Part shown: positions 3-28,140 of the stretch, piece by piece
Position numbering within the stretch: position 1 is the stretch's first letter
How the letters are laid out: each line of letters opens with the position of its first letter
From: an uncultured archaeon
Lineage (GTDB): Archaea; Asgardarchaeota; Jordiarchaeia; Jordiarchaeales; Jordiarchaeaceae
NCBI GenBank assembly: GCA_964510585.1
Contig: CAZECW010000212.1
Location: 1-32,000 of the forward strand
DNA length: 32,000 nt
Direction: 5' to 3'
Program-made: the position numbers and the translations under genes
The notes under the pieces: model-generated
The model's input: the letters and a program-made list of their open reading frames with translations, nothing else
What the model was told of the DNA's origin: nothing
Databases searched by the model: none

Positions 3-1061
3 CTAGGGGAGGGTAATGACCAAATAACACTAAGTCTGAGGGGGCCGGAGGATAAGAAGCCTCCAAAAACATTCTTACCCGCAGGGATTGTAACCAGCAA
101 CATAGAGCTCTACAAGGCGTACGTGCTTTCTGCAGCGATGGAGCCGACTGCGGATGGGTTAGTGGCGCTGCCTTTGATGGGTATAGGTGACCTTAAGCCC
201 ACGACTGGGACGCCTAGCGAAACTCTTCTAGGCTTGACTGAAGGGTTCATAATGAGGGAGGCTGCAATACGTGTTGGTAGACCAGGCATGTACCTAGGCA
301 TCCCTATGAGCGTTTCAAGTGCAAAGGCGGTGATGGGCTCATTCCACCCAGCGGGCTACACAAGGTACAATTGCATGTGCCCTGTACACATAATACAAGA
401 CATGAGAATCGACTATGACAGACTCAATCTAAGCTTCTTCGCCCAGCAAAACCACATCAAACCCTGGATCAGCAGCTGCCCCACTATGTATGCTTATATA
501 AGAGGACCTGAAGAAGCTGCGGTTGAGGGTATCGCCCACGTCCTTGGTATGATGGCTTATTCTGGGGGCTCGTTCGCGCAAGCCATGAGCGCCACAGTTG
601 AGGGTCGATATGAGGGAAGGGACGTCTTCTGGGCCAACTCAGCACAGGCTGCTGCAGCGGAGAGAAAAATACGGATTCCCTGGATTAGCTACGGAAGTGG
701 AGTAACTGGGCAGCTAGGCACCGAAGTTTCATTCTACTCCATAGCAGCAACAGTCATAACGAACACCATATCTGGCATGGAGGGAATGTGGCTAACGGGA
801 GCTGTGCCAGGAATCGAGGGAAGATGGGGTGGAGAAGTAGCAAGAGCCGCTTCTGGAATAAAGGTGAGCGACGGAGTCGAAATAGTAAAAGAACTCCTTA
901 AAAGGTATGAGGACAAAGCAAAAGTTGGAATGCCGAGTGAAGACCACATACTCAAACGCTACGACATGAAGACTCTAAAACCCAATAAGGAATACATCGA
1001 ACTCTACTCAAAAATGAAGAAAGAACTGCAAGACATGGGCCTAAACTACGAAGCTTGGTAA
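3..1061 (+). CDS. mtmB: Monomethylamine:corrinoid methyltransferase MtmB family protein, non-pyrrolysine homolog (5' truncated by the window edge)
   Basis: Frame is open from base 3 (LGEGNDQITLSLRGPEDKKPP...), upstream of the called start at 123. Recognisable MtmB segments: VGRPGM, EGRWGGEVARAASGIK, YDMKTLKPNKEYIELY, and C-terminal LQDMGL. Confidence 0.85.
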   Translation, partial: LGEGNDQITLSLRGPEDKKPPKTFLPAGIVTSNIELYKAYVLSAAMEPTADGLVALPLMGIGDLKPTTGTPSETLLGLTEGFIMREAAIRVGRPGMYLGIPMSVSSAKAVMGSFHPAGYTRYNCMCPVHIIQDMRIDYDRLNLSFFAQQNHIKPWISSCPTMYAYIRGPEEAAVEGIAHVLGMMAYSGGSFAQAMSATVEGRYEGRDVFWANSAQAAAAERKIRIPWISYGSGVTGQLGTEVSFYSIAATVITNTISGMEGMWLTGAVPGIEGRWGGEVARAASGIKVSDGVEIVKELLKRYEDKAKVGMPSEDHILKRYDMKTLKPNKEYIELYSKMKKELQDMGLNYEAW

Positions 1062-1438: not shown

Positions 1439-2971
1439 TTGTTTGATTTAATTCATTATAATAAATGGTGGTTGGAGAGTTTTAGTGTGGTTGGAAGCCG
1501 GTTTTTCGATGGGTTGGTTGAGATTGTTGGTCGGAGTAATGTTTCCCGAGAACCCGGAGTGTTAGAGGAGTATTCTAGGGATATCAGCTTCACTGTTTCT
1601 AAAAAGGCGTTGTGCGTGGTTTGGCCTAGGAGTGTTGATGAGGTTAGCAGAATAGTTAGGCTTGCGGCTGAGTACTCATTTAAACTTGTGCCTGTGAGTT
1701 CAGGTAAGCCTAGGCTGCGGGGGGACACTACTCCCATAGTGGACAATTCTGTTATTGTTGATTTGAGTAAAATGAACAGGATTATTAGAATTGATAGAAA
1801 GAATAGGGTAGTTATGGTTGAGCCCGGGGTAACATTTAGCCAGCTTTTGCCGGAAGCGAATAAGCATGGTCTTAGATTGTTGATGCCTCTTCTTCCAAAG
1901 GCCTCGAAATCGGTTCTTGCCAGCTGTCTTGAGAGGGAGCCAGTGACTATGCCTAAATATCACTGGGACTCCTCTGACCCACTGCTCTGTACCGAGGTGG
2001 TCTTTGGCACTGGCGATGTTTTCAGGACTGGTGCTGCTGCAGGTCCCGGAACTCTTGAGGAGCAGTTGGAGTCTGGTGGGGCTCAGAAAAGTCCCTTGGG
2101 CCCAACACAGTTTGATCCCTTTAGAATTTTGCAGGGAGCGCAGGGTACGATGGGCATTGTAACTTGGGCTACTGTTAAGTGTGAGGTTCTGCCTAGTGCT
2201 AGGAAGCTTTTCTTTGCCGCTTCGGATTTGCTTGAGAACTTCTTGGATTTTGCTTATGGTGTTCTGAGGCGTAGGTTGGGTGACGAGTTTTTCATCCTAA
2301 ACAATGTGAATCTGGCCACTGTTCTGAGGAAGGAGGCTTCTGATATTCATTCACTTAGTGGTGTTTTGCCTAAATGGATTTTAGTTCTCTGTATTTCGGG
2401 CCATGGGAAGCTGGCTCAAGACGAATTGGAATACCTGGAAGGAGACATCAGAGATATTGCTGGTGAGACTGGTGTTAATCTGTTGTCTGAGGTTAATGGA
2501 GTCTCAAATGGTGAAGTCTTGGGCTTACTTGGTAGGAGCTGTGAGGAGCCCTACTGGAAGCTGCGGTTAAGGGGAGGATGCCAGGAAGTGTTTTTCCTCA
2601 CAACCCTTGACAAAACTCCTGAGTTTCACAAAATGTTTACCCGAATAGCTGATGAAGAAAGGTTTCCGCCCGAGAATTTGGGCGTGTATATTCAGCCTCT
2701 TGTTCAGGGTTGCAACTGCCACTGCGAGTTTGACATTTACTACAACCCGCAGGACACAATGGAAACCAATAGGGCTAAATACTTATACATGAGAACAAGT
2801 GAAGCCCTTCTAAAAATGGGAGCCTTCTTCAGCAGACCGTACGGACCATTCACCGAAGTTGTTTACAGAAATTGTCCACCGGAAACCGTTGCAGCTCTGA
2901 GGAAGGTTAAATCAATTTTTGATCCAGAAAACCTGCTAAACCCGGGAAAACTATGTTTTGGAGGAGTGTGA
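1439..2971 (+). CDS. FAD-binding oxidoreductase (PCMH-type FAD domain; VAO/GlcD superfamily), subunit 1; true start probably GTG 1487
   Basis: VVWPRSVDEVSRIVRLA, LVPVSSG, IVDLSKMNRIIRID, VMVEPGVTF, EVVFGTGDVFRTG, and C-terminal LRKVKSIFDPENLLNPGK. Confidence 0.9.
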   Translation: MFDLIHYNKWWLESFSVVGSRFFDGLVEIVGRSNVSREPGVLEEYSRDISFTVSKKALCVVWPRSVDEVSRIVRLAAEYSFKLVPVSSGKPRLRGDTTPIVDNSVIVDLSKMNRIIRIDRKNRVVMVEPGVTFSQLLPEANKHGLRLLMPLLPKASKSVLASCLEREPVTMPKYHWDSSDPLLCTEVVFGTGDVFRTGAAAGPGTLEEQLESGGAQKSPLGPTQFDPFRILQGAQGTMGIVTWATVKCEVLPSARKLFFAASDLLENFLDFAYGVLRRRLGDEFFILNNVNLATVLRKEASDIHSLSGVLPKWILVLCISGHGKLAQDELEYLEGDIRDIAGETGVNLLSEVNGVSNGEVLGLLGRSCEEPYWKLRLRGGCQEVFFLTTLDKTPEFHKMFTRIADEERFPPENLGVYIQPLVQGCNCHCEFDIYYNPQDTMETNRAKYLYMRTSEALLKMGAFFSRPYGPFTEVVYRNCPPETVAALRKVKSIFDPENLLNPGKLCFGGV

Positions 2972-2974
2972 AAA

Positions 2975-4252
2975 ATGGCTACGAGCCTCAGCGACTATGA
3001 GAAATTAATGGCGGGCTGCATCAGGTGTTCAAACTGCAAGTTCATCCCCGCATTACAGGTGAAAAGCCAGAAGTTTTCAGCCATCTGTCCAGCCATTGAG
3101 CGATACAATTTCCACGCCTACTCAGGCGGAGGAAAAATGATTATTGCCCAAGCTATGCTCAAAAACAGAATCCAATACACCGAAGAACTCCTGAAGGTGA
3201 TTTACCGATGCACAGCCTGTGGGGGATGTGACATAGCCTGCAAATTCTTCTTTGAGTTAGAGCCCCTGGAAGTAATACTGGAGCTAAGAAACCACTGCGT
3301 AGAGAGCGGTGCTGGTCCCATGCCCCAGCACAAAAAGTACATCGAAAGCATTAAAATTAACCACAACCCATATGGCGAAAACCACGAGGAGAGACTTTCC
3401 TGGCTTCCAAAAAACACTACTTTTAAGGAGGATTCCGATACTGCCTACTTTGTGGGATGTACAACCTCCTACCGCAGAAGGGAGATAGCTCAAGCCACCG
3501 CAAAAATTTTTGACATGGTAGACCTAGACTTCACCATACTTGGTCCCGAAGAGTTCTGCTGTGGCAGTCCCCTATTAAGAATTGGTGACAGGAGAGACGC
3601 CCTTGAACTCATGCAAAAAAACGTTGAAAAACTCAAAAACCATGGAATAAAGAGAATCGTAACAAGCTGCGCCGGCTGCTACAGCATGTTCAAGGTGGAG
3701 TACCCCCGCTACCTTAAAACAGACTTCCAAGTCATTCACACCTCAGAGCTACTAGACAACATGCTGAAGAATGGCAAACTGGAGCTAGATAAAGAGGTTC
3801 CCCTAAAGGTGACTTACCATGACCCCTGCCACCTGGGAAGAAACTCTGAACCCTACACACCCTGGCAGGGACAAATGGTGAAAGTTGTTTCACGAGTCTA
3901 CATTCCAGTCCCCCCAAAGGCTATCAGGCGTGGAACAAACGGCGTCTACGAGCCTCCCCGAAACGTTTTGAGAAGCATTCCAGGCCTACAACTCATCGAA
4001 ATGGAGAGAATAAAAGAATACGCCTACTGCTGTGGAGCCGGAGGAGGTGTGAAATCCGCATTCCCAGATTTCGCACTCTGGACTGCAAGCAAAAGGGTTG
4101 AGGAGGCCAAATCCACGGGAGCGGAGGCCCTAGTTTCCTGCTGCCCATTCTGCGCCACGAACCTTAAGGACGCTATCAGAGAGAAGGGTGAAAAGATGAA
4201 ATTTTATGATTTAACTGAACTCGTTCTAAAAAGTATGGGAGGAAGCACATAA
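2975..4252 (+). CDS. (Fe-S)-binding protein, HdrD/GlcF-like: N-terminal ferredoxin-type Cys motifs plus two CCG domains
   Basis: CIRCSNC...CP and CTACGGCDIAC, then YFVGC, FCCGSP, TSCAGC, TYHDPCHLGR, YCCGAGGG, VSCCPFC. Starts 3 nt after the upstream stop. Confidence 0.92.
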   Translation: MATSLSDYEKLMAGCIRCSNCKFIPALQVKSQKFSAICPAIERYNFHAYSGGGKMIIAQAMLKNRIQYTEELLKVIYRCTACGGCDIACKFFFELEPLEVILELRNHCVESGAGPMPQHKKYIESIKINHNPYGENHEERLSWLPKNTTFKEDSDTAYFVGCTTSYRRREIAQATAKIFDMVDLDFTILGPEEFCCGSPLLRIGDRRDALELMQKNVEKLKNHGIKRIVTSCAGCYSMFKVEYPRYLKTDFQVIHTSELLDNMLKNGKLELDKEVPLKVTYHDPCHLGRNSEPYTPWQGQMVKVVSRVYIPVPPKAIRRGTNGVYEPPRNVLRSIPGLQLIEMERIKEYAYCCGAGGGVKSAFPDFALWTASKRVEEAKSTGAEALVSCCPFCATNLKDAIREKGEKMKFYDLTELVLKSMGGST

Positions 4253-5821
4253 ATGTTGGATAGAGAAGTTTACAGAGCTCTGGAAAAAATTGTGGGAAGC
4301 GAAAACATAACTGAGGAGCCAGCAATACTTGACACTTACGCCTACCAATGGTGCACCGAGGTCGAAAAGGCATCAAGAGGAGAGGAACCATCACGGTTCG
4401 GCCACAGGCCAGAAGCAGTGGTACTACCCTGCTGCACAAGCGAGGTCCAGGCAATAGTGAAAATCTGCAACCAGTATGGCATCCGCTTCAAAGCTCACAG
4501 CACTGGTTTGGGAGTGTGGGGAGCTGTATCCGGCCCCGGAACAATACAGCTGGACCTCAGGAGAATGAACAAGATCCTCGAGATAAATGAGAAGAACATG
4601 TATGCGGTAATTGAACCCTACGTGACCAACGCTCAGCTCCAATCTGAACTCATAAAGAGGGGATTAAACCACCACATGCAGGGAGCAGGCCCCCAAACTT
4701 CACCCCTAGCCAGCCACACCTCCATGGTCGGACCAGGCTTCACATCTGCCAGCACCGGTTTCAGCGGCCGCAACGTTCTGGCAGTAGAGTGGGTTCTACC
4801 AACGGGCGAAATTCTAAGACTAGGATCACTTAACTGCAGCGAAGAATGGTTCAGTGGAGACGGACCGGGGCCCAGCCTCAGAGGCGTTATGAGAGGCTTT
4901 ATGGGTGCCTATGGTGGACTCGGCGTTTTCACCAAATGTGCAATTAAGCTTTATCCGTGGCCAGGTCCTCGAGAATGGAAGGTGAGCGGAGTCATTCCAA
5001 ACTACGAGTTTGAGGTTCCACCATACTGGAAAATGTTTGTGCTCAACTTTCCTGACTGGGACTCCTTTGAGGAAGCTTACTATCGGATTGGGGAGGCTGA
5101 GGTCAGCATGATGGCTATGGCTTCTTCTCAGGAGGGATTGGCTACAATGTTTTCCAACACTAGGGAGCAGACTATCGAGAAAATTTTGTCGGATCTTATG
5201 ACTAAGGTTCAGAGGTATTTCATAGTTTTGGTAGCCGCTCATACTGAGAGGGAGTTCAAATACAAGACTAAGCTTGTGAATGAGATAGTTAAGGAGACGG
5301 GTGGTGAGGATCTCGTTGAGAAGGGTGTGGTGAAGCCGCCGTCAATTAGCTATGCTGAAGGCGTTAGGAACATGTTGGGGAGCCACGCCTTCCGCTTCAC
5401 AAGCTGCTTCCAAAGCACCCATGGAGGAATGGACACCATATCTATGGCTATAAACATAGCTAAGGTAAATGTGCCCATTAAACGCAAATACATAGAGAAA
5501 GAGTTAATCGGCGACGACAGAGGAGAGGGCATGTGGATTACTTTCTACGAGCAGGGACACTTTGCACACATGGAGATACCAACAATATATGACCCCGCCG
5601 ACCCTGAATCCTGTAAGGGATACGCAGACTACTCCATGGAGTGTAACAAGGCAGACATAGAGCACAGCTTGGGGATTCCTTTCTTCATAGTGGGAGACAG
5701 GATGCACGACATGTTCGGTCCCCACTGCTGTAACTATCAGAACTGGCTTCGCAAAATAAAGGAGGCATTCGACCCTAACTGCGTTTCAGACCCGGGACAC
5801 TACATATCCCCAAAAAAGTGA
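4253..5821 (+). CDS. FAD-binding oxidoreductase (PCMH-type FAD domain), subunit 2
   Basis: RPEAVVLPCCTSEVQAIVKICN, AHSTG, IQLDLRRMNKILEIN, AVIEPYVT, AVEWVLPTGEILRLGS, LRKIKEAFDPN. ATG directly abuts the upstream TAA (taaatg). Confidence 0.9.
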   Translation: MLDREVYRALEKIVGSENITEEPAILDTYAYQWCTEVEKASRGEEPSRFGHRPEAVVLPCCTSEVQAIVKICNQYGIRFKAHSTGLGVWGAVSGPGTIQLDLRRMNKILEINEKNMYAVIEPYVTNAQLQSELIKRGLNHHMQGAGPQTSPLASHTSMVGPGFTSASTGFSGRNVLAVEWVLPTGEILRLGSLNCSEEWFSGDGPGPSLRGVMRGFMGAYGGLGVFTKCAIKLYPWPGPREWKVSGVIPNYEFEVPPYWKMFVLNFPDWDSFEEAYYRIGEAEVSMMAMASSQEGLATMFSNTREQTIEKILSDLMTKVQRYFIVLVAAHTEREFKYKTKLVNEIVKETGGEDLVEKGVVKPPSISYAEGVRNMLGSHAFRFTSCFQSTHGGMDTISMAINIAKVNVPIKRKYIEKELIGDDRGEGMWITFYEQGHFAHMEIPTIYDPADPESCKGYADYSMECNKADIEHSLGIPFFIVGDRMHDMFGPHCCNYQNWLRKIKEAFDPNCVSDPGHYISPKK

Positions 5822-5887: not shown

Positions 5888-6670
5888 TTGTTTGAGGATG
5901 ACCTTGAGATGAAGGAGGAAACCCGTAGGGAGGTTAAACAGGCCATCATAGAATTTGCAGAGGCAAGTCTGAGTAGGGTTGAATTCACGGTTGAGGAGCT
6001 TAAAAGAGCTTTTCCATTTCACACTATATTCTTTCCCGATGAGGCTTTGCTGTCATTCAAGATACAGAGAAGTTTGGTAACGAGGATGGGTATGCGTCTT
6101 TATCCAGAAATAGCAGTAATAATTGCTAGGGATAATTTTGGTGGTGTGCACCGTAATTATCCGATTTCTGGCAGAATATTGGCGGATAGGGTGGGTGTGA
6201 TGGATCGGATTATAGATGAGTTGCGTTCTGGTAGGAGGAGCCCTAACCATGATGGCGAAATAAGAGAAATTTTCTCTGTGGCTGGTGGGAAACCGGTAGA
6301 AATATCCATTATTGCTGATTTATTTATAAGTGATTTTAGGCCGGGTCCGCTTTTCCTTGAAATTAAAAGTCCTAGGCCTAACTTGGATGTTTGCGCGGAG
6401 TCTAAGAAGAAGATGCTTTACTTCCAAGCATTATTTGAGGGTAAGAAGCCTGAGGCCTATCTTGCTTTTCCCTACAACCCTTTTGTTTACAGGGAAAAAT
6501 ACAATCATCGGTTCACCAAGCAAATCATGGATTTAGACAGGGAGGTCTTAATAGGAGAGGAAATGTGGGATAAGATTGGTGGTGCTGGAACCTACAAAGA
6601 ATTGTTGGAAATAGCTGATGAGGCGAAAAAGGAGATTTTGGGAAAGAATAAAAGGAATTTTGGCGATTAA
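5888..6670 (+). CDS. Type II restriction endonuclease, TdeIII/MjaII family (PD-(D/E)XK)
   Basis: IADLFIS...FLEIKSPRPN catalytic-like motif, AFPYNPF and IGEEMWDKIGG...YKELLEI segments typical of the family; adjacent to a DNA methyltransferase. Confidence 0.8.
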   Translation: MFEDDLEMKEETRREVKQAIIEFAEASLSRVEFTVEELKRAFPFHTIFFPDEALLSFKIQRSLVTRMGMRLYPEIAVIIARDNFGGVHRNYPISGRILADRVGVMDRIIDELRSGRRSPNHDGEIREIFSVAGGKPVEISIIADLFISDFRPGPLFLEIKSPRPNLDVCAESKKKMLYFQALFEGKKPEAYLAFPYNPFVYREKYNHRFTKQIMDLDREVLIGEEMWDKIGGAGTYKELLEIADEAKKEILGKNKRNFGD

Positions 6671-6683
6671 ATGTTTGGTTCTT

Positions 6684-7958
6684 TTATTCTACCTCATTAA
6701 TTTTCTTAAAGATTAGTATGTATTCATATCTCAGTCTAGCGTAACCGCCGAGGATGGGTCTTCTTATTATTTTGTCTAGGGTGAATCCAGCATTTTGGGC
6801 GAATTCTATGTACTTCCGGTGGATGGGGAGTTTCTTTTCTTTATAGGTGACGTCACCAATTATAGTTATACAGTACCTGTTGGGTTGTAAAACTTTGTTC
6901 ATCTCTTTAAAGGAATCTATCATGTCTTTATAGTAGTTATCTATTCTTTCGTCACCTTTTCCCCTTAGACCCACCATGTCTTTTACTAGGGCATCTGCGT
7001 TAATGTTCAAATAAGATAAGGCGTGCAGATCGTTTTTAATGTAGTCCACAGCTATGCTGTATGGTGGTGAGGTGATGATTCCGGCGAAGTACTCCCTAGG
7101 AAAAATTTCACTTAATTTTCTTGCGTCTCCTTCCAAAACTTCCACATTTCCGAGCTGAAAATCCAGTTTTTGCTTCAAGTCTTGGAATTTTTCAACAGTC
7201 TTCAGTATGGCGTCTAGGTTACTGTTGAAGCCCTCCCACAATGGTTTCTTAATGTAGGTATAATCAGATAGGGCATATAAATAGCATAATTGGTAGAATC
7301 GGTAAACCCGGTCATCGGATGTTAGTTTCGACTCATCCTCTAAGTTCTTAACGTATAACTCGAGATTTGAAGTTTTTCCAAGTACTCCTTTCGTTTTTCT
7401 GTTAAAATGGTGGAAAATCTTCTCCCTAGGAACCTCTTTTAGCATTTCAGTTGTGAGATCCAGAAGTTCACATTTTACTCTTGACATCAAAGTACATATT
7501 GGATTAATATCCACACCCCAACTGTCTACGCCTATCGTCTTAGCTTCAATAAGTGTCGTGCCACTACCAACAAAGGGGTCAAGAAGCCTATCTTCTCCCT
7601 TAAGCCCCATCCAGTTAATGAGAGCCTTTACCATCTGGGGATGAAATTTCGCTTTATACGGGTAGAACCAATGTGTTAAATATTGGCTTGTTCTACCAAT
7701 TTGCCCCTTTCCCTTAATATTTGAGATGTAATAGTGAAAAGATTTTTCGCCGTTTACCTCCTCAAAGTAGGCACACCTCCTCCTAAAAGCTTCTAGATCC
7801 CTCCACCAACTGGATAACTCCATCTTTGCAAGCTGAGCCTCATAAATAGAGCCAACATCGTCAAAAAGTTTAACATTTACAGGCTCAGGTATACCATTGA
7901 GAATCCAATCCATTATGGGTTCAGCCATGTACATGGTTGTCTTTTGATCTTCCACCAT
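6684..7958 (-). CDS. DNA methyltransferase, amino type (probably N4-cytosine, alpha motif order), cognate of the adjacent REase
   Basis: HWFYPYKAKFHPQ, SAM-binding LLDPFVGSGTTL, GVDINP, and catalytic IITSPPY located C-terminal to motif I. Confidence 0.9.
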   Translation of the reverse strand: MVEDQKTTMYMAEPIMDWILNGIPEPVNVKLFDDVGSIYEAQLAKMELSSWWRDLEAFRRRCAYFEEVNGEKSFHYYISNIKGKGQIGRTSQYLTHWFYPYKAKFHPQMVKALINWMGLKGEDRLLDPFVGSGTTLIEAKTIGVDSWGVDINPICTLMSRVKCELLDLTTEMLKEVPREKIFHHFNRKTKGVLGKTSNLELYVKNLEDESKLTSDDRVYRFYQLCYLYALSDYTYIKKPLWEGFNSNLDAILKTVEKFQDLKQKLDFQLGNVEVLEGDARKLSEIFPREYFAGIITSPPYSIAVDYIKNDLHALSYLNINADALVKDMVGLRGKGDERIDNYYKDMIDSFKEMNKVLQPNRYCITIIGDVTYKEKKLPIHRKYIEFAQNAGFTLDKIIRRPILGGYARLRYEYILIFKKINEVE

Positions 7959-8746: not shown

Positions 8747-9172
8747 TTATTCTTCCAAAATGGCTAATCGTATTACGTCTGAGATTCCGTCGAAACCACT
8801 GTCGAAACTGTATATGGTTTTAATGTTTAGGTCTCTCATTACAGCCACGCTAATGGCGTCGGTGAAACTCAGCCGTTCATAAGTTTTAAATATTTGTATT
8901 CCAGCTTCAAAGTGTTTATTCTCAACTTTTATGAGTGTGAGTTTTGGAGAGGAAAGTATTGTGTCTAGGATTTCGATGGAAGCATTTGTACCCTTCTTTT
9001 TTCTAACAAATGTGACTATTTCGTCAAGAATATAATCGGTGATTACAGGTTTTCCCAAAATACCTTCTTCGACAGCATTGATGATTTCTTTACCTTCTTT
9101 GTGATGTTTTTCTTTAGGGAAAGATGCCGCTATGAACACCGTAGTATCCAAGAAGGGATTTTTAATGTTCAC
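8747..9172 (-). CDS. vapC: VapC PIN-domain ribonuclease toxin
   Basis: FLDTTVFIA, ITDYILDEIVT, SFTDAISVAVM, IYSFDSGFD: all four acidic PIN positions are present. Start overlaps the antitoxin stop by 11 nt. Confidence 0.92.
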   Translation of the reverse strand: MNIKNPFLDTTVFIAASFPKEKHHKEGKEIINAVEEGILGKPVITDYILDEIVTFVRKKKGTNASIEILDTILSSPKLTLIKVENKHFEAGIQIFKTYERLSFTDAISVAVMRDLNIKTIYSFDSGFDGISDVIRLAILEE

Positions 9173-9419
9173 CGCTGGCTACCTCATCGTGCTCTGAGAC
9201 AGAGTCAAACTCCTCTTCGGTGTCGTATTTTCCAATTATTTCTGTGAGCTTGGAGTTTTTCTTCAATGGCCTAATAAAAATTTCTTTACCAGTATCTATC
9301 CACACGATTTCGTCCCCAGGCCCCAAACCGTGCCTCTCCCTAGTTTCAGAGGGAACAGCGACCTGATACCCCTTCGAAATCCTCAACTTTTTAACCACCA
9401 CTGTCACAGGAATCACCAT
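9162..9419 (-). CDS. vapB: AbrB/MazE/SpoVT-family antitoxin (VapB)
   Basis: ISKGYQVAVPSETRERHGLGPGDEIVW swapped-hairpin motif, acidic C-terminus, directly upstream of vapC. Confidence 0.9.
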   Translation of the reverse strand: MVIPVTVVVKKLRISKGYQVAVPSETRERHGLGPGDEIVWIDTGKEIFIRPLKKNSKLTEIIGKYDTEEEFDSVSEHDEVASGEH

Positions 9420-10643: not shown

Positions 10644-12086
10644 TTACTTTATTCCGGCTACTCTTTTGGCTCTTTCCTTGTATTCTTGGAGCTGCTTCTG
10701 GTATTCTCCATAGATTATCATTCTTTGGGCTTGAAGTGAGCCTTCGCCGTGGAGTGCCAGTACCTCTATGCCCCCTCCTATGTCGGAGGCCATCCATATC
10801 CTTATTAGTTGAAGCATTCTGAGCCTGTGTTCTGTTGGTATTCCCTTTTTGCCCCCCAAATATTTGTCTATGTAGCCTCTTAATTCTGGGTTTTGGTAGT
10901 CTAGGTAGGTTGGGGCTGTGACTAGGATTCCGCCGCACAGATCTTGTACCCACTTTACGAAGTTGTGGTAGTTTTCGGCGAAGTGGTATTTGGATATGTT
11001 GCTTATTACCGGGTTGGGCACCGCTATTCCGCCATATATTACGGGGTCGCTGCAGGAGGCTTTGGCTAGGGATTTCAGCATTTCCAAATAGATTATCATG
11101 TTGGTTATTTTTTCTCTGACGTGTGAAATTTGGTCGATTCCATTGTATTCAGCTATGGCTTGAGCCATTCCCAATTGTAGCTCGGTTAGGGCGATTCTGT
11201 AGCAGGATGCTGTGTGTCTGTGGAAAAACGAGAAATTGTAGGCGATGGTTCCCGCATACTGCCATTCGCCGCAGAGGAAAACTCTCTCCCAAGGTATGAA
11301 AACGTCGTCAAAAACTAGCAGAGACTCGGTATGCATCCTTATGGGTACATCTACTGGAAACTCAAGGGGACTTTGCTGGTACCTGAGGGGGTGACATATG
11401 TGTTTCAGCCCCTTAGCGTTTGCGGGAACAGCAAAGCACACAGCGTAGTCTCTGTCTCCCTCCCTCATAGCTCTGCAGGGCAGGACGAGAATCTCATCGG
11501 AGTACGCCGAGGCGGTTATATGCATTTTTGCCCCTCTTACTATTATTCCTTCATCGTTTTTGTCCACTACTCGAACATAGAAATCGGGATGCGTCTGTTC
11601 AGGAGAGGAGGGGTGCTGGCTTCTATCCCCCTTCACATCTGTCATTCCGCAAGCTATGCTTAAATCTTTTTTTCTAACGTGTTCATAGTATTCGGTGATT
11701 CTCTCAATGTATTCCTCCTTTCCCATTACTTGGGAGGTTACCCAAATGGCGTTTAGACAGTCTCCAGCAACATCTTTTGTGAAGGGTATTACTCCGTCGC
11801 CCAGCCGGGTTGCAGTAACTATTAGCTCATGTCTTTTTAGTAGGTCTTCAGCGGTTTTGGGAAGATAGTAGTGTCTGCTTATCGGCTCCCCTGTTTCTGG
11901 ATGTTGCGCCACAGCTAGGTCTCGGTACTTGGGGTTCTCAGCCATTTCATAATCTAAAGCCGCGGTTTCAACACCCACTTTAAGCATAGGATGGGTGGTT
12001 ACATCATTCACCTTTTCTCCAAGGATCCAGACTTGTCGGCCGTCCCTTAAACCTTCCTTATACTGCTTTACGGTCCTTAAACCCAT
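10644..12086 (-). CDS. 4-hydroxybutyryl-CoA dehydratase / 4-hydroxyphenylacetate 3-hydroxylase family flavoprotein (AbfD/HpaB fold, atypical active site)
   Basis: MTDVKGDRS, VRGAKMHIT, DYAVCFAVPANAKG, LVFDDVFIPWERVFLCGE, HGEGSLQAQR, C-terminal AKRVAGIK; SD GGAGGTGA at 12094-12101. Confidence 0.9.
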   Translation of the reverse strand: MGLRTVKQYKEGLRDGRQVWILGEKVNDVTTHPMLKVGVETAALDYEMAENPKYRDLAVAQHPETGEPISRHYYLPKTAEDLLKRHELIVTATRLGDGVIPFTKDVAGDCLNAIWVTSQVMGKEEYIERITEYYEHVRKKDLSIACGMTDVKGDRSQHPSSPEQTHPDFYVRVVDKNDEGIIVRGAKMHITASAYSDEILVLPCRAMREGDRDYAVCFAVPANAKGLKHICHPLRYQQSPLEFPVDVPIRMHTESLLVFDDVFIPWERVFLCGEWQYAGTIAYNFSFFHRHTASCYRIALTELQLGMAQAIAEYNGIDQISHVREKITNMIIYLEMLKSLAKASCSDPVIYGGIAVPNPVISNISKYHFAENYHNFVKWVQDLCGGILVTAPTYLDYQNPELRGYIDKYLGGKKGIPTEHRLRMLQLIRIWMASDIGGGIEVLALHGEGSLQAQRMIIYGEYQKQLQEYKERAKRVAGIK

Positions 12087-12142
12087 AAAAATATCACCTC
12101 CAAACTTGAAAATTGTTTTCGATATGGTAGTACTTTAATCTT

Positions 12143-12213
12143 TTCACAATTTATAGTGAACAATCTAAAGACATAATAGGATGGTGTTTTCGACAATTTT
12201 CACTTCATAGTGA
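12143..12213. promoter_or_regulatory. Paired inverted-repeat operator candidates in the divergent promoter; the first overlaps the TATA box of the AbfD-like gene
   Basis: TTCAC-aatttata-GTGAA at 12143-12160 (minus strand reads TATAAA inside it) and TCACT-tcat-AGTGA at 12200-12213. Confidence 0.5.
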
Positions 12214-12354
12214 GTCTTCACAATGCCTTTTTAATCCAGAATCCTAAAATGGAGGGGCCAAAACTTAACTTTCGTCGGCAGGGATAAGTATAGTAAAATT
12301 TAAGTGTTTCGAAAAATACTTAAGGGCAAGTCTATTTGAATGTGAGGTTTTAAA

Positions 12355-13980
12355 ATGAAGATTTATAAGGGAGGCCATTTATATTATCCCGAAATTCCCT
12401 TCTTTGGAATATTGGATGATACTGTGGGGCGTTTCCCTGACAGGTATGCTTTTCTGCACCCCAAAAAAATTACCTACAGAGAGTTCGGTGAATCTGTGGA
12501 CAGGATAGCAACTGCTCTGGCGGATATTGGAGTTAGGAAGGGTGACAGGGTGATAATTTATTCACCCAACTGCATCGAGTGGGAGATTGCCTGCTTTGGA
12601 ATATCTAAGGCGGGCGGTGTCTTCGTTCCAATGAATCCCATGTTCCGAGAGTCCGAAGTTGAATACGAAATCAAAGACGCTGAGGCAGAAACCATAATTA
12701 TCCACGAAGGCATGTATCCGACCATTAAGAATGTTAAGGAAAAAGCAGGGCTAAAAAACATAATAGTTATTGGGCAAAAACAGCCAGACACATATTCCTT
12801 CAGCGAACTTCTGGAAAAATACAAGCCTAACCCACCAAAATACAAATATAATCCCAAAGAGGATCTTGCCGCACTCCTATATACAAGTGGAACTACGGGT
12901 CTACCAAAGGGGTCAATGCTTACACACTACAATCTGGTCGCAAACACTATCCAGTGGTCTAGCCACACTGACTTTAACGAAACCGATGTTTTCATAATAC
13001 TCATTCCACTCTACCACATATTTGGACTCGCATTATCCATGAATCTCACAATTTGGAACGGCGGAGCACAAGTTGTAATGTCCAGCTTCAACCCTGCAGA
13101 GTGGTGTGAACTTGTGGAGAAATATAAAGTGACCTACAGCCTCTGTGTACCACCCCTACTCAACCTGATAGTGAGACATCTTGAGAACCCACAAGTCAAG
13201 GGCTACGATTGGTCTTCTTTCCATGTGATGGCTAATGGGGCAGCGCCTGTCCCCACTGAGCTCGCCAAAAAGTTTGAAAAATTAGCGAAGGAAAAGTGTA
13301 GGGGGACAGAGGATCTTCTGGTTGGTCAGGGATGGGGGCTCTCTGAGGCAGCTCCGGTGGCTGCAAATCCCTTCCACAGGAATAGGTTAGACACTCAGGG
13401 AATACTTATGCCGGACACCTACCACAAGATAATAGATGTCTTGACAGGTGAGGAGCTGCCTGAACCTGGCCAGATGGGAGAAATAGTAATTAGGGGGCCC
13501 CAAGTTTTTAAGGGGTACTGGAAGAGACCGGAAGCCACGGAGCAAGCCTTCTGGACTGATCCAAAAACTGGACTGAAATGGTTCCGGACAGGTGACGTCG
13601 CATTTATAGATGAGGAAGGTTACGAACACTTGGTTGATAGGATGAAGGAGATGATAAAATATAAGGGCTACGCTATTGCACCAGCCGAACTTGAAGACCT
13701 ACTCTTCAAGCACCCCAAAGTATTGGATTGCGCCGTGATACCAAAGCCGGCACCCGACCCAGCGCTTGGAGAAATTCCCAAAGCATTCATAGTGCCCAAA
13801 CCCGAATATAAAGGCAAAATAACTGAGCAAGAAATAATTGACTGGGTGGCTGAGAGAATAGCTCCCTATAAAAAGATTAGGGAGGTAGAGTTTGTAGAGG
13901 GTATACCGAGGGTTATTACCGGAAAGATTCTCAGAAGAGACCTGATAAAGAGAGAACGCGAGAAAATGGGACTAAAATAA
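12355..13980 (+). CDS. AMP-forming acyl-CoA synthetase (long-chain fatty acid / 4-coumarate-CoA ligase-like)
   Basis: LLYTSGTTGLPKG, QGWGLSE, WFRTGDVA, DRMKEMIKYKG, PAELEDLL, GKILRR. Confidence 0.95.
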   Translation: MKIYKGGHLYYPEIPFFGILDDTVGRFPDRYAFLHPKKITYREFGESVDRIATALADIGVRKGDRVIIYSPNCIEWEIACFGISKAGGVFVPMNPMFRESEVEYEIKDAEAETIIIHEGMYPTIKNVKEKAGLKNIIVIGQKQPDTYSFSELLEKYKPNPPKYKYNPKEDLAALLYTSGTTGLPKGSMLTHYNLVANTIQWSSHTDFNETDVFIILIPLYHIFGLALSMNLTIWNGGAQVVMSSFNPAEWCELVEKYKVTYSLCVPPLLNLIVRHLENPQVKGYDWSSFHVMANGAAPVPTELAKKFEKLAKEKCRGTEDLLVGQGWGLSEAAPVAANPFHRNRLDTQGILMPDTYHKIIDVLTGEELPEPGQMGEIVIRGPQVFKGYWKRPEATEQAFWTDPKTGLKWFRTGDVAFIDEEGYEHLVDRMKEMIKYKGYAIAPAELEDLLFKHPKVLDCAVIPKPAPDPALGEIPKAFIVPKPEYKGKITEQEIIDWVAERIAPYKKIREVEFVEGIPRVITGKILRRDLIKREREKMGLK

Positions 13981-14209: not shown

Positions 14210-15028
14210 CTATTTTAGGAAGCATGCCCCCATCCCCTGTGCCCCTTTTATGCAAATCCACTCTTTATTTCCATATTTCTCAGCTTCCAGCTTTTCAGCC
14301 ATTGCTATTTCTTCTTGCGTGTAGGTAGACTGTTTAAATTTAGTGTTTAATGACTGTGCATATCCCTTAATTATGTTATTTACGATTGTGTTTTCGACGT
14401 AGAGGTGGTCTATACATTTTTGGTTGAGTTCCTTTTTGACCGTAGTGTACCCACTTTCCACTTTCTCCAGTAGGGAGGGGTTTATTTTTTCTTCGGGAAT
14501 GTTGATTACTTTTAGCATTGTTAGAATATCGTAGTCTATGAGTATTGTTGAGTGGAACAAGAATGTTGAAGAAGCTGCGTGGATTCCGCTTCCCGCAATT
14601 TTTTTGCCATTAACAATGATATCAGTGGTTTTATAGCAATATGCAGCATTTATGTTTAGAGATTTTAGTCCGAGAAGTACGCCTTTATTTAATAGTTCGA
14701 ATTTTTGCGAAACTTTTGAGGGATACGTTCCATCGTCTGAGATGATGAGGGTGATTCCGATTTGTGAATACCACTTGGGACACCCCATTATTATTGCGCC
14801 TCCCCCAGTCATTCTTCTTGTGAGGCTCATATTATTCCTCTCTATGAATTCAAGGTTGACGTCGCTTATGTCTTGGCTGTGTCCAATAACAACTGATGGA
14901 CGGGAGAAAAAATAGAATCTTAGGACATTTGGGGATTTATGCTCCTCCACTCTCCTCAATAAAGTTTCATCCAAGGCCAGACCCTTGGGGGCAGGGTAAG
15001 CCTTATCCTTGATAACACGCCACTCCAT
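14210..15028 (-). CDS. Lipoate-protein ligase / octanoyltransferase catalytic domain (LplA/sLplA-like, no fused C-terminal accessory domain)
   Basis: LALDETLL, NVLRFY, SVVIGHSQ, RRMTGGGA, DIIVNGKKIAGSG, FLFHSTILIDYD. Confidence 0.92.
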   Translation of the reverse strand: MEWRVIKDKAYPAPKGLALDETLLRRVEEHKSPNVLRFYFFSRPSVVIGHSQDISDVNLEFIERNNMSLTRRMTGGGAIIMGCPKWYSQIGITLIISDDGTYPSKVSQKFELLNKGVLLGLKSLNINAAYCYKTTDIIVNGKKIAGSGIHAASSTFLFHSTILIDYDILTMLKVINIPEEKINPSLLEKVESGYTTVKKELNQKCIDHLYVENTIVNNIIKGYAQSLNTKFKQSTYTQEEIAMAEKLEAEKYGNKEWICIKGAQGMGACFLK

Positions 15029-15046
15029 AAGTAAATCACCCCTTTT

Positions 15047-16126
15047 TCATTTTTCTTGTGCTTTAATATCCTTGAAAATTAGCGAACAGCAGTGGTCATT
15101 AAACTCCAATCTGAAACCCTTTTTCTCGGCGTAATCTGCTCCTTCCTGACTAATGAAGGCTATACCGTTAACTCCGGATTTAATAGCCAAAATGTCAGTG
15201 GAAATCTTATGAGCGCCCTTAGGGCGGGCGCAGCCCAGGATTATTGGTGTTTTCGGCAGTTTTATCCGGCTATATGTGATGATATTAGCTATACTAGCTG
15301 GTTTCGGTGGCACGGTGTCCTGCATTGGTGTGTTTTCTAATGGCATAAGCGCAACTATCACTAGGGCTTTGGGTTTGTATTTCGAAATCATATCAACAGC
15401 GTTTAACTCGCCAACAATTTTTCCGTAGTTTAGCCCTACGACAATGTGTGGAACACTTGGAATATTATACATGTCGAGTAGTTCGAGTGAACGTTCGAAA
15501 TCTCTTGTAGTTTTTTGTAAATGATACACTTTTCGGATAGTTTCATTGTCACCAATAATGTCAAGCATTACTGCATCGACCCCCACCTCAGCAAGGCTTG
15601 AAGCTAAATCTTGATTAATTAAACCAGTGTGCATAACTATGGATAAATCATATTTTTCTTTGATTTTTTTAAGAGTGGGGATGAATTTCAATAGTGGAAC
15701 GGTGCCGTCTAATCTTGATCCACCGCTAATTAGAATTCCCTCGGTTCCTTTACTCACAAAATTATTGATTAGGGCTTCTAGGCGTTCAGGGGTTTCGGCT
15801 GGAAACATTGATTCTAAAATTTGTCCTCTACAATGATCACATTGAAGCTGGCATTTACTTCCAGTGATACTTATTGGGCAAAATCTGAAATTATCTGCAG
15901 GTTTGTGTTGGTCGATGGAATAAGTTTGTATGGACGGTGAATAGCACCAGATACTTTTCCCAAAATTTTTAATTTTTATATCTAAAGCTTTCTTTTGTTC
16001 CACAATATTTAGTGTGGTGCTCAATGTTTTCCTTCCCTGCCGGCTGATCCTGTTAAAGTTTGGCTTTTTATGGGAAATCTTCAGCCAGATTAATCGTGGG
16101 GGCAGCTGGTTTGTTTGAGTAATCAA
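15047..16126 (-). CDS. lipS1: Radical SAM lipoyl synthase subunit LipS1-like (true start probably near 16000-16030)
   Basis: CQLQCDHC (CxxxCxxC), GILISGGS, PHIVVGL, C-terminal GCAR and CC motifs, which I recall as the LipS1 signature; next to a lipoate ligase. Confidence 0.8.
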   Translation of the reverse strand: MITQTNQLPPRLIWLKISHKKPNFNRISRQGRKTLSTTLNIVEQKKALDIKIKNFGKSIWCYSPSIQTYSIDQHKPADNFRFCPISITGSKCQLQCDHCRGQILESMFPAETPERLEALINNFVSKGTEGILISGGSRLDGTVPLLKFIPTLKKIKEKYDLSIVMHTGLINQDLASSLAEVGVDAVMLDIIGDNETIRKVYHLQKTTRDFERSLELLDMYNIPSVPHIVVGLNYGKIVGELNAVDMISKYKPKALVIVALMPLENTPMQDTVPPKPASIANIITYSRIKLPKTPIILGCARPKGAHKISTDILAIKSGVNGIAFISQEGADYAEKKGFRLEFNDHCCSLIFKDIKAQEK

Positions 16127-17246: not shown

Positions 17247-17436
17247 AGAAAAACATAAATTTTAACTATTTCGCCCCCTTCCTGAAACGATTCCAGTGTT
17301 TCGCAGAAACATACAGGAAGGAGTCTCCTCTAAAGACAGGTAACGCAGAGTCCGCATCCTTTTAACACTCTTGGCGCTTGCCTGAGGCGTCCTACTCTCA
17401 CAGCAAAAATCAAAGAAAGATAAATACACGCAAGGA

Positions 17437-17444
17437 GTATATAA
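17437..17444 (-). promoter_or_regulatory. Consensus TATA box (TTTATATA on minus strand) upstream of the lipS2 leader
   Basis: Perfect archaeal TATA consensus; would place a start site near 17413. Confidence 0.45.
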
Positions 17445-17575
17445 ATCTGGCTAGTTTGGTGACTCCGGGTTTAACGTGCAGATTATATAACCAAAAAATG
17501 GGGGGGTAAAATCGATTAACTCTGCATCGCCGCTTAAGTCATAAAAAATGAAAAGGGAATATTGTGTTTTGATCC

Positions 17576-18022: not shown

Positions 18023-18448
18023 TAATATCTCCTCTTACGCCTCCTCAATTGTGAGAGAAATACTTGCCACGAAACAATATAAACCTTTTGTTGAATGCTC
18101 CTAACACATATGCTGGAGATAGCAGAATTACGCATTATATTAAAATTTTTCAAATCACAAGCTAAAATTGCAAAAATCATCAAAACACCCAAGAAATAAG
18201 TAAGTAAAATTTTGCCGCATAACATTTTGATGCCGGGCTAATTGGAACAAGCCCTATTTCCCAATTTTTGATACTAAACTGGCGAAAGCCCATAAATTAT
18301 CCTGCTTTGAGATGATGCAATTTCTTTTTGGCACCTTTTTTGAGTTCTTCGATTAAGATTAGCTTTTATTTTCTGCTAGCCATAACATATTTATCACTAG
18401 TTGTCTGTGAAGCGATAAGGAGAAAAAAATGAGTGAAATTGCTGAAAA

Positions 18449-28061: not shown

Positions 28062-28140
28062 AGAACTTACAGCAAATGGGCGCTTCGCTGTTGTGGTTAC
28101 ATAATAATTATTTGAATCTCCTTCATGAGAAGTGAATTAA

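What the first reader, a model, noticed from the sequence alone, without database searches (positions are those of the whole stretch)
1439..5821. Flavoprotein / CCG Fe-S protein / flavoprotein triad that is neither a canonical lactate dehydrogenase nor alkyl-DHAP synthase
Two divergent PCMH-type FAD proteins flank an HdrD/GlcF-like CCG protein with 3-nt and 0-nt gaps, suggesting one heteromeric complex. Both lack the C-terminal GEHG metal-binding motif of D-lactate/glycolate dehydrogenases and the HHH motif of alkyl-DHAP synthase; they have GAFFSRPYG and GIPFFIVG there, with HCE and HME upstream. Their FAD loops (PVSSG, AHSTG) look more like the ISTG loop of p-cresol methylhydroxylase / vanillyl-alcohol oxidase enzymes. 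Inference: an alpha/alpha-prime alkylphenol- or aromatic-alcohol-oxidising dehydrogenase that passes electrons to a CCG Fe-S module instead of a cytochrome c. I know of no characterised archaeal complex of this kind.
Basis: partly seen in the sequence, partly recalled or inferred. Interest (0 to 1): 0.7.

Follow-up and report, generated by a model that had tools for sequence, protein, structure and literature searches.

The report
Asgard two-flavoprotein iron-sulfur dehydrogenase operon
Three tightly packed genes in a hot-spring Asgard archaeon encode two different flavoproteins and an iron-sulfur protein that most likely form one soluble dehydrogenase; it belongs to a widespread family, first described in 2026, whose substrate is still unknown and is probably not a phenol, glycolate or lactate.

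Summary
Three co-oriented genes sit 3 nt and 0 nt apart: A (probably starting at 1487, to 2971), B (2975-4252) and C (4253-5821). All quoted motifs are present.

A and C are diverged VAO/PCMH-fold flavoproteins. B is an HdrD-like protein with all Cys for two ferredoxin clusters and two CCG clusters.

The trio recurs four times in this genome, in three gene orders. All three genes lie adjacent in 52 of 80 related loci from Asgard archaea, Chloroflexota, Actinomycetota, Desulfobacterota and Acidobacteria. It also sits on an Allorhizobium ampelinum plasmid. Natural B+A and A+C fusions exist. An A-C dimer is predicted (ipSAE 0.94, best control 0.00).

In my tree, A and C fall outside the GlcD clade and group with a PCMH-like protein. 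The phenol-binding Tyr/Tyr/Arg triad is not kept: A has Arg/Ser/Arg plus Lys/Arg, and C keeps none. The alkylphenol reading is therefore not supported; an anionic substrate is more likely.

Two 2026 papers describe the same architecture as the most abundant proteins of anaerobic benzene degraders. This scan had already reported two paralogous triads from this genome. I class it as a new member of a known, biochemically unsolved kind.

The parts
1487..2971 (+). Subunit A: a 494-aa VAO/PCMH-fold flavoprotein (FAD_binding_4 + FAD-oxidase_C). The longest ORF starts at TTG 1439; the likely start is GTG 1487.
   Evidence: start site. AF2 pLDDT 87.7. Foldseek TMq 0.81-0.85 to vanillyl-alcohol dehydrogenase, PCMH and EUGO, and 0.76 to mouse LDHD. 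The family profile scores 117.7 bits on PCMH, 86.8 on LDHD and 53 on E. coli GlcD.
2975..4252 (+). Subunit B: a 425-aa HdrD/TfrB-like iron-sulfur protein with a 2x[4Fe-4S] ferredoxin domain and two CCG domains. No transmembrane segment.
   Evidence: Pfam Fer4_8 plus CCG x2. The best NCBIfam hit is TfrB, 209 bits, below its cutoff of 385. The 8 ferredoxin Cys and the 5+5 CCG Cys are conserved in 55-61 of 61 relatives; maximum hydropathy is below the transmembrane range. PDB sequence hits are HdrB chains and 9ojn.
4253..5821 (+). Subunit C: a 522-aa second VAO/PCMH-fold flavoprotein. It has a full FAD_binding_4 match and a cap domain too diverged for Pfam.
   Evidence: AF2 pLDDT 87.2 with a full two-domain fold. 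Foldseek TMq 0.72-0.74 to 4-phenol oxidoreductases and 0.65-0.70 to LDHD. About 256 clusters at 50% identity score E<=1e-30 against the C profile.
1456..1465 (+). TTATAATAAA, a possible archaeal TATA box about 27 nt upstream of GTG 1487. It lies inside the 1439 ORF extension.
   Evidence: Read directly from the sequence printed. This is inference only; no promoter tool for archaea was available.

Best explanation
A, B and C most likely form one soluble cytoplasmic flavin/iron-sulfur dehydrogenase, built like glycolate dehydrogenase GlcDEF but from different branches of the same superfamilies.

A and C, two anciently diverged VAO/PCMH-fold flavoproteins, form a heterodimer. B docks on it, with the fusion evidence pointing to A.

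Inferred mechanism: a C-H bond next to an oxygen function is oxidised by hydride transfer to FAD, most likely in A. Electrons then pass one at a time through B's two ferredoxin-type clusters to its two CCG (noncubane-type) clusters, and on to an unidentified acceptor (a disulfide, a quinone-like compound or another redox protein).

The substrate is unknown. At positions that line the PCMH/VAO pocket, A carries Arg/His78, Lys/Arg138, Lys141, invariant Arg450 and invariant His412. This points to an anionic substrate (carboxylate, CoA thioester or phosphate) rather than a phenol. Lipid-type neighbour genes in the closest Thor, Hermod and Loki relatives suggest the substrate also has a hydrophobic part.

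Shown: gene structure, folds, Cys sets, co-duplication, synteny and fusions. Predicted: the A-C interface. Inferred: direction of electron flow, which subunit is catalytic, substrate class and acceptor.
For: - This genome has four A+B+C triads in three gene orders (A-B-C twice, A-C-B, C-A-B). Their A, B and C identities run in parallel: 53/49/42%, 59/62/49% and 40/41/36%. The A and C clades have congruent branching.
- All three genes are adjacent in 52 of 80 GTDB loci across Asgard lineages, Dehalococcoidia, Actinomycetota, Desulfobacterota and Acidobacteria. A fourth order, B-A-C, occurs in Desulfobacterota.
- Rosetta-stone fusions exist: a 936-aa B+A protein (L103) and a 1066-aa A+C protein (P0266). 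P0266 was seen in two assemblies, directly after a B gene.
- The A-C model scores ipSAE 0.94 against a best control of 0.00. That mark was reached by 58 of 80 solved complexes and 2 of 110 mismatched pairs. The three runs agree in at least 99% of contacts, and the partner pLDDT is 90-91.
- B keeps every Cys for four clusters, and no transmembrane segment is present in A, B or C.
- A and C fall outside the GlcD clade (SH-aLRT 97) and inside a clade (99) that also holds a PCMH-like protein.
- Pocket-aligned residues of A are cationic and conserved.
- Conserved neighbours include a GGR-family flavoprotein with a ferredoxin, a CrtC/Svf1-like lipocalin and SCP2. ETF accompanies the triad in bacteria.
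- Toth et al. 2026 modelled the analogous ORM2a trio as a GlcDEF-like heterotrimer.
Against: - There is no biochemical datum for any member of the family.
- The window's own triad lacks the lipid-type neighbours. This genome has no CrtC-like or SCP2 homologue, and its best GGR homologue lies 13 kb from another triad. Its neighbours are an MtmB-like gene and a restriction-modification pair.
- Contexts of the three paralogous triads differ: a TPP enzyme with a Zn-ADH, an ADP-forming CoA ligase, and an amino-acid permease. No single substrate class follows from them.
- Pocket residues were assigned by sequence alignment to PCMH and VAD, not from coordinates. Residues 445-451, including Arg450, also lie in the predicted A-C interface.
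- The dimer model may partly reflect memory of solved VAO-family homodimers.
- The B+A fusion rests on a single genome.
- The tree used the quick method and only one long-branched PCMH-type sequence.
Confidence: 0.62

Rival explanations
1. It is the usual 'GlcD/HdrD' D-lactate (or other small D-2-hydroxy-acid) dehydrogenase proposed for uncultured archaea, coupling 2-hydroxy-acid oxidation to reduction of a heterodisulfide.
For: - Sources name relatives 'glycolate oxidase'.
- HdrD/GlcD pairs are interpreted this way in Bathyarchaeia, Methanomethylicia and Korarchaeia (PMC6783470, PMC10667645).
- The fold matches mouse LDHD at TMt about 0.8.
- The cationic pocket suits a carboxylate.
- Paralogue contexts fit amino-acid and 2-oxo-acid metabolism: a TPP enzyme, an ACD-type CoA ligase and an amino-acid permease.
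Against: - The His/His/Glu (H..H, EHG) residues of GlcD, LDHD and D2HGDH are replaced in both A and C.
- Scores are far below the GlcD equivalog cutoffs: 69 and 73 bits against 568.
- A and C lie outside the clade that holds E. coli GlcD and the six canonical EHG/HHH paralogues this genome already has.
- That reading does not explain a second full-length flavoprotein.
Confidence: 0.15
2. One reading: an alpha/alpha-prime 4-alkylphenol or aromatic-alcohol dehydrogenase of the PCMH/VAO type that uses a CCG protein instead of cytochrome c.
For: - The best PDB matches by sequence profile and by fold are PCMH, vanillyl-alcohol dehydrogenase or oxidase, eugenol oxidase and 4-ethylphenol oxidase.
- A and C group with a PCMH-like protein in the tree.
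- Arg450 aligns with PCMH Arg474.
- One paralogue (C212 39526-40959) has Tyr at the PCMH Tyr95 column.
- The A. ampelinum copy sits beside a P450 system and an aldehyde dehydrogenase.
Against: - In the A family the Tyr95 column is Arg in 34, His in 10 and other residues in 4 of 48 sequences.
- The Tyr473 column is Ser in 39 and Asn in 9.
- The VAO Asp170 column is Arg or Lys in 41 of 48.
- C keeps none of the three triad residues.
- A phenolate pocket cannot be built from these residues.
Confidence: 0.06
3. The complex does not simply oxidise a substrate. It works reductively or as a flavin-based electron bifurcating/confurcating machine. One possibility is thiol- or ferredoxin-driven reduction of an unsaturated compound, as in thiol:fumarate reductase TfrAB. 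Another is the unusual C-H activation proposed for the benzene-degrader enzymes.
For: - B's best family match is TfrB.
- The complex has two flavins and four clusters.
- EtfB and EtfA-like genes and a GGR/FixC-like flavoprotein with a ferredoxin accompany the triad in many bacterial and archaeal loci.
- Musat et al. and Toth et al. discuss bifurcation analogies for the same architecture.
Against: - No NAD(P)H- or ferredoxin-binding module is part of the triad.
- ETF genes are absent next to all four triads of this genome.
- VAO-family enzymes characterised so far are oxidative or non-redox; this rests on background knowledge of the family.
Confidence: 0.15

Closest known systems
BzS1_12970/80/90 ('putative benzene dehydrogenase', Musat et al. 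2026, PMC13416013) and ORM2a 'Magic' proteins #24-26 (Toth et al. 2026, PMC13101534)
   Same: The gene order and domain pattern are the same: a flavoprotein with FAD_binding_4 plus FAD-oxidase_C, a CCG Fe-S protein of about 46-48 kDa, and a flavoprotein in which only the N-terminal FAD domain is recognised. Both are presumed heterotrimers with a GlcDEF-like AF3 model. Both are uncharacterised.
   Different: Their third subunit is 577 aa against 522 aa here. Their operons sit among beta-oxidation, CoA-transferase and MaoC genes; the window's does not. Their sequences could not be fetched, so orthology was not measured here. The top BLAST hits listed for BzS1_12990 are proteins of about 510-520 aa at 37-40% identity, the size class of the C family.
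E. coli glycolate dehydrogenase GlcDEF
   Same: Two FAD_binding_4-superfamily subunits plus one subunit with a ferredoxin domain and two CCG domains, encoded in one operon.
   Different: The A and C profiles score only 53 and 38 bits on GlcD and do not hit GlcE; B scores 22 bits on GlcF. The EHG and H..H residues are absent. C is full length, whereas GlcE is 350 aa. A and C lie in a different clade from GlcD and GlcE. The gene order is different.
p-Cresol methylhydroxylase (PchF/PchC) and other 4-phenol oxidoreductases (VAO, EUGO, vanillyl-alcohol dehydrogenase)
   Same: These are the best fold and profile matches. They share the ISTG-type loop, the Arg474/Arg504 equivalent (Arg450) and the tree clade.
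   Different: Identity is only about 20%. The two phenolate-binding tyrosines and the VAO Asp170 equivalent are replaced by Arg, Ser and Lys/Arg. There is no cytochrome c subunit; the electron outlet is a CCG protein. The enzyme here is a heterodimer of two paralogues rather than a homodimer.
HdrD / TfrB / GlpC-type CCG proteins (for subunit B)
   Same: A ferredoxin domain followed by two complete CCG motifs, as in HdrB, HdrD and TfrB.
   Different: B is below every NCBIfam cutoff. No HdrE-type membrane partner or fumarate-reductase flavoprotein lies next to it. The acceptor is unknown.
Mammalian and bacterial D-2-hydroxy-acid dehydrogenases (LDHD, D2HGDH, LctD)
   Same: The same two-domain fold (TMt about 0.8) and a likely anionic substrate.
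   Different: The metal-binding His/His/Glu set is missing, and the enzyme is heteromeric with an Fe-S subunit.

Membership tests
GlcDEF glycolate dehydrogenase | Two FAD_binding_4-type subunits plus a Fer4/CCG subunit in one operon | tested here: met
   Pfam domains and gene spacing
GlcDEF glycolate dehydrogenase | Catalytic subunit reaches the GlcD equivalog score and keeps the H..H and EHG residues | tested here: not met
   TIGR00387 scores 69 and 73 bits against a cutoff of 568. The residues are replaced by Q...H.E and by S-R-P (A) or F-F-I-V (C).
GlcDEF glycolate dehydrogenase | Short GlcE-type second subunit and a GlcF equivalog | tested here: not met
   Neither profile hits E. coli GlcE. 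C is 522 aa with a full fold. B scores 44.7 bits against the GlcF cutoff of 333.
4-phenol oxidoreductases (VAO/PCMH group) | Two-domain VAO fold with these enzymes as the closest structural and profile matches | tested here: met
   TMq 0.81-0.85 for A and 0.72-0.74 for C. PCMH scores 117.7 bits against the A profile. A and C share a clade with a PCMH-like protein.
4-phenol oxidoreductases (VAO/PCMH group) | Phenolate-binding Tyr/Tyr/Arg triad (PCMH Tyr95, Tyr473, Arg474; VAO Tyr108, Tyr503, Arg504) | tested here: not met
   A has Arg or His / Ser or Asn / Arg; C has none of the three.
4-phenol oxidoreductases (VAO/PCMH group) | Covalent flavin link (VAO His422, PCMH Tyr384); cytochrome c subunit for PCMH | tested here: inconclusive
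   No cytochrome c gene lies next to the triad. The covalent-link positions were not aligned, because no coordinates or full reference sequences were available.
D-lactate / D-2-hydroxy-acid dehydrogenases (LDHD, D2HGDH, Dld-II) | Metal-binding His, His, Glu in the cap domain | tested here: not met
   Alignment with E. coli GlcD and the canonical paralogues of this genome
Alkyl-DHAP synthase (AGPS) | HHH loop | tested here: not met
   No HHH in A or C. Another paralogue (C155) has it.
HdrD/TfrB-type CCG proteins (subunit B) | 2x CxxCxxCxxxC(P) motifs plus two five-Cys CCG motifs | tested here: met
   All 18 Cys are present and conserved in 55-61 of 61 relatives.
HdrD/TfrB-type CCG proteins (subunit B) | Equivalog-level similarity to HdrD, TfrB or GlpC, with their partner subunits | tested here: not met
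   The best hit is TfrB at 209.5 bits against a cutoff of 385. The partners here are two VAO-fold flavoproteins.
BzS1_12970/80/90 - ORM2a #24-26 family | A(two Pfam domains)-FeS(CCG)-flavoprotein(N-terminal domain only) operon | tested here: met
   One search compared with the description in PMC13416013
BzS1_12970/80/90 - ORM2a #24-26 family | Sequence orthology to the benzene-degrader proteins and their CoA/beta-oxidation gene context | not testable with these tools
   The sequences were not retrievable. The window's gene context differs.

The most novel reading that the evidence does not exclude
The A/B/C family may be a new class of anaerobic dehydrogenases. It would act on hydrophobic, anionic substrates (lipid-, isoprenoid- or aryl-derived acids or thioesters) by chemistry not yet seen in the VAO superfamily, the same chemistry that underlies the unsolved first step of anaerobic benzene degradation. 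Its HdrD-like subunit would feed an as yet unknown thiol/disulfide or other carrier in Asgard archaea, which lack CoM and CoB. The four copies in this genome would be substrate-specialised versions.
Probability: 0.2. Interest if true: 0.8.

Novelty: new member of a known kind. Interest (0 to 1): 0.5.

Why it matters
Pipelines mislabel this trio as glycolate oxidase or lactate dehydrogenase. About 256 clusters at 50% identity match the C subunit alone, and 69 of 401 sampled Desulfobacterota genomes carry it. It is multiplied in Asgard archaea, and it supplies the most abundant proteins of anaerobic benzene degraders. Even so, no member has a known reaction or electron acceptor.

- natural B+A and A+C fusions that support the subunit contacts;
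- a copy on a plasmid of the culturable, genetically tractable Allorhizobium ampelinum S4;
- a conserved cationic pocket signature that argues against phenols and small 2-hydroxy acids.

For Asgard metabolism, this genome has about 20 HdrD-like proteins and no obvious heterodisulfide. That leaves open what these proteins reduce.

Tried and rejected
- Fetching the benzene-degrader sequences (BzS1_12970/80/90, WAC08368-70) for a direct comparison failed. The supplements hold only BLAST tables. Cluster look-ups of 574-613-aa C-type representatives gave Actinomycetota and Clostridia proteins. Accessions of my hits are not in the paper's tables.
- Desulfobacterota loci with a 576-aa C turned out to be B-A-C clusters, not the benzene cluster.
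- No RNA holder was listed for the stretch. The DNA is held by hot-spring metagenomes from several studies, one of which may be the source.
- A search of this genome for the lipid-type neighbours found no CrtC-like, SCP2 or 138-aa homologue, and only distant GGR copies. That context cannot be transferred to this window with confidence.
- No literature exists on the A. ampelinum locus.
- I did not attempt a promoter scan, because the tool covers sigma-70 promoters only.
- I could not inspect model coordinates, so the pocket assignments rest on sequence alignment.
Full report
OBSERVATION. The three + strand ORFs are as reported. A's stop is followed by AAA and then B's ATG. B's TAA is followed directly by C's ATG. 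The quoted motifs are all present. Relatives of A are 486-495 aa, and the 97%-identical P0124 begins at the equivalent of GTG 1487, so A is probably 1487-2971. A TTATAATAAA at 1456-1465 would suit an archaeal TATA box for that start; this is inference only. Pfam gives FAD_binding_4 plus FAD-oxidase_C for A, Fer4_8 plus two CCG domains for B, and FAD_binding_4 only for C. No NCBIfam cutoff is reached: GlcD scores 69 and 73 bits against 568, and TfrB scores 209 against 385.

ORGANISM AND COPIES. The closest relatives are named Freyarchaeota, Jordarchaeum and Njordarchaeota (83-97% identity). The DNA occurs in hot-spring metagenomes. The assembly (3.78 Mb, 96% complete) holds 23 FAD_binding_4 paralogues and about 20 HdrD-like proteins; only six of the flavoproteins carry EHG or HHH.

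The genome has four A+B+C triads:
- this window, order A-B-C;
- C32, order A-B-C;
- C162, order A-C-B;
- C212 38335-42495, order C-A-B.

Identities between copies run in parallel for A, B and C, and the A and C clades branch congruently. The whole trio was therefore duplicated as a unit.

DISTRIBUTION AND SYNTENY. A scan of GTDB species genomes with the C profile gave at least 563 confirmed stretches. Among the best 80 loci:
- 49 have A-B-C, some with an extra C, A or B;
- two have B-C-A and one has A-C-B;
- most of the B-C-only or C-only cases are cut by contig ends;
- about ten loci with complete flanks have C without A or B.

The hosts are Thor-, Hermod-, Hel-, Loki-, Hod-, Frey- and Jordarchaeia, Dehalococcoidia, Actinomycetota, Desulfobacterota and Acidobacteria. 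In Desulfobacterota, 69 of 401 sampled genomes have a C-family gene at E<=1e-50. Where C is about 576 aa, the order is B-A-C. The exhaustive profile search found 256 clusters at 50% identity with E<=1e-30. A tblastn search of plasmids found the complete A-B-C trio on pAtS4e of Allorhizobium ampelinum S4. It is 36.7, 34.4 and 33.1% identical to A, B and C, each subunit matching its own counterpart best. It lies next to an MFS transporter, a porin, a P450 with ferredoxin and reductase, and an aldehyde dehydrogenase.

ONE COMPLEX. Two natural fusions link the subunits. A 936-aa ORF in a Desulfobacterota genome joins B (residues 17-419) to A (448-933). P0266 (1066 aa) joins A (18-487) to C (505-1063). 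P0266 occurs in two assemblies, directly after a B gene and a Svf1/CrtC-like lipocalin gene. The A-C pair was modelled with family alignments. The result was ipSAE 0.94 against a best control of 0.00, with about 298 contacts, at least 99% contact agreement between runs, and a partner pLDDT of 90-91. That mark was reached by 58 of 80 solved complexes and 2 of 110 mismatched pairs. VAO-family homodimers have been solved, so part of this pass may be likeness rather than proof of binding. The interface takes in the loops that were disordered in the monomer models (A 195-219, C 200-220) and A 445-451. B keeps all eight ferredoxin Cys and both five-Cys CCG motifs. None of the three proteins has a transmembrane segment.

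WHICH BRANCH OF THE SUPERFAMILY. The AF2 models are confident (pLDDT 87.7 and 87.2). Both show the full two-domain VAO fold. A's best matches are vanillyl-alcohol dehydrogenase or oxidase, PCMH and eugenol oxidase (TMq 0.81-0.85), ahead of mouse LDHD (0.76). C matches both groups about equally. The A profile scores 117.7 bits on PCMH, 86.8 on LDHD and 53 on E. coli GlcD. The C profile scores 86 on 4-ethylphenol oxidase, 67 on LDHD and 38 on GlcD. Neither profile hits GlcE.

I built a 44-sequence tree (IQ-TREE quick search, LG+G4). It contained all 23 paralogues of this genome, E. coli GlcD and GlcE, a Pseudomonas GlcD-like protein, family representatives, the A. ampelinum pair, and a PCMH-like protein from N. 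aromaticivorans pNL2 flanked by two cytochromes c. The canonical GlcD clade (SH-aLRT 97) separates from the rest. The A clade (100), the C clade (100), the PCMH-like protein and one further group from this genome share a clade (99). Two caveats apply: the tree holds only one PCMH-type sequence, on a long branch, and no sequences were left out of it beyond those listed.

ACTIVE SITE. HMM and MAFFT alignments place PCMH Tyr95, Tyr473 and Arg474 opposite A positions 78, 449 and 450. Across 48 family members:
- position 78 is Arg in 34 and His in 10;
- position 449 is Ser in 39 and Asn in 9;
- position 450 is Arg in all 48.

The VAO Asp170 / vanillyl-alcohol dehydrogenase Pro151 column is Arg or Lys in 41 of 48. 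Lys141 is present in 47 of 48, and His412 is invariant. C keeps none of the Tyr/Tyr/Arg triad. A and C share a Q-G-x3-H-x-E signature where GlcD has its two histidines. A phenolate pocket is thus not conserved; a cationic pocket suggests an acidic substrate. These assignments come from alignment, not from coordinates.

CONTEXT. Across the 80 loci the recurrent neighbours are:
- a GGR-family flavoprotein of about 467 aa (23 loci, archaeal and bacterial), followed in L014 by a 90-aa 2x[4Fe-4S] ferredoxin;
- a CrtC/Svf1-like double lipocalin (18 loci);
- a 138-aa protein (17 loci);
- SCP2, PadR and EtfB (EtfB in 10 loci, all bacterial);
- aldehyde:ferredoxin oxidoreductase (7 loci).

This hints at lipophilic substrates and ETF- or ferredoxin-linked electron flow in those lineages. 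The window's own triad has none of these. Upstream lies an MtmB-like gene cut by the contig start; downstream lie a TdeIII-type endonuclease and a DNA methylase. The three paralogous triads sit next to a TPP enzyme with a Zn-ADH, an ADP-forming CoA ligase with an HTH-V4R regulator, and an amino-acid permease.

LITERATURE. HdrD/GlcD pairs in uncultured archaea are conventionally read as lactate-linked heterodisulfide reductases, without biochemical support. Musat et al. 2026 found that an operon of FAD oxidase, HdrC/B-like Fe-S protein and FAD oxidase (BzS1_12970/80/90) makes up about one fifth of the proteome of a benzene-degrading sulfate reducer. Its domain pattern is the same as here, and the paper's tree relates the subunit clusters to the GlcDE flavin subunits and sets them apart from the VAO/PCMH group, a placement that differs from my tree. 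Toth et al. 2026 found the homologous trio to be the three most abundant ORM2a proteins and modelled it as a GlcDEF-like heterotrimer with at most 23% identity to GlcDEF. Earlier follow-ups of this scan on two other triads of this genome (e1-5396191, e1-5396767) reached the same placement; the second gave me the lead to these papers. I could not obtain the benzene-degrader sequences, so their orthology to this window remains untested.

VERDICT. The operon most likely encodes one heterotrimeric flavin/iron-sulfur dehydrogenase that is not a canonical GlcD, Dld or AGPS enzyme. The alkylphenol reading is not supported. The family is widespread, was described in 2026 and is biochemically unsolved, so this is a new member of a known kind, and its substrate and acceptor remain open.

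Noticed in passing
window 3-1061 (+): An MtmB-superfamily ORF (Pfam MtmB, E 3.5e-32, profile positions 98-450), cut by the contig start. It runs open through the region where methanogen MtmB carries its in-frame amber (pyrrolysine) codon; that placement is from memory. It looks like a distant, non-Pyl relative of unknown substrate.
   Followed up: no
window 5888-6670 (+) and 6684-7958 (-): A convergent restriction-modification pair directly after the triad: a TdeIII-type type II endonuclease and an N6/N4 DNA methylase.
   Followed up: no
genome G000: The genome has 23 FAD_binding_4 paralogues of about 460-540 aa and about 20 HdrD-like CCG proteins, mostly as adjacent pairs or trios. Only six flavoproteins keep the EHG or HHH motifs, so non-canonical 'GlcD' enzymes are the majority.
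   Followed up: partly
L103:10297-13107 (-) and P0266 (L107:5001-8201): Natural fusions exist: a 936-aa B+A protein in a Desulfobacterota genome and a 1066-aa A+C protein. The A+C protein occurs in two assemblies, preceded by B and by a Svf1/CrtC-like lipocalin.
   Followed up: partly
L097:8851-13345 (NC_011981.1, Allorhizobium ampelinum S4 plasmid pAtS4e): A complete A-B-C trio (WP_015918697, WP_015918696, WP_015918695) lies in a culturable alphaproteobacterium, beside an MFS transporter, a porin, MarR, a P450 with ferredoxin and reductase, and an aldehyde dehydrogenase. The same trio is on plasmids of several A. vitis strains.
   Followed up: partly
L014:1519-3236, L014:7596-8021, L027:7982-9082 and 20+ other loci: A GGR-family flavoprotein with a small 2x[4Fe-4S] ferredoxin, an SCP2 lipid-carrier protein and a CrtC/Svf1-like double lipocalin recur next to the triad in Thor-, Hermod- and Lokiarchaeia. 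The GGR-family gene also recurs in Dehalococcoidia.
   Followed up: partly
window 8747-9172 (-) with 9162-9419 (-): A PIN-domain protein with a small overlapping upstream ORF, a possible VapBC-type toxin-antitoxin pair.
   Followed up: no
window 10644-13980: An HpaB/4-hydroxybutyryl-CoA-dehydratase-family protein (480 aa, - strand) lies divergent from an AMP-forming acyl-CoA ligase (541 aa). A DUF362 ORF overlaps the first by about 300 nt.
   Followed up: no
window 14210-22315 and 26361-29259: This stretch holds a lipoate-protein ligase, two tandem radical-SAM genes, a ferritin-like protein, two dihydroxy-acid/6-phosphogluconate dehydratase paralogues, an aldehyde:ferredoxin oxidoreductase and an Ldh_2-family dehydrogenase.
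   Followed up: no
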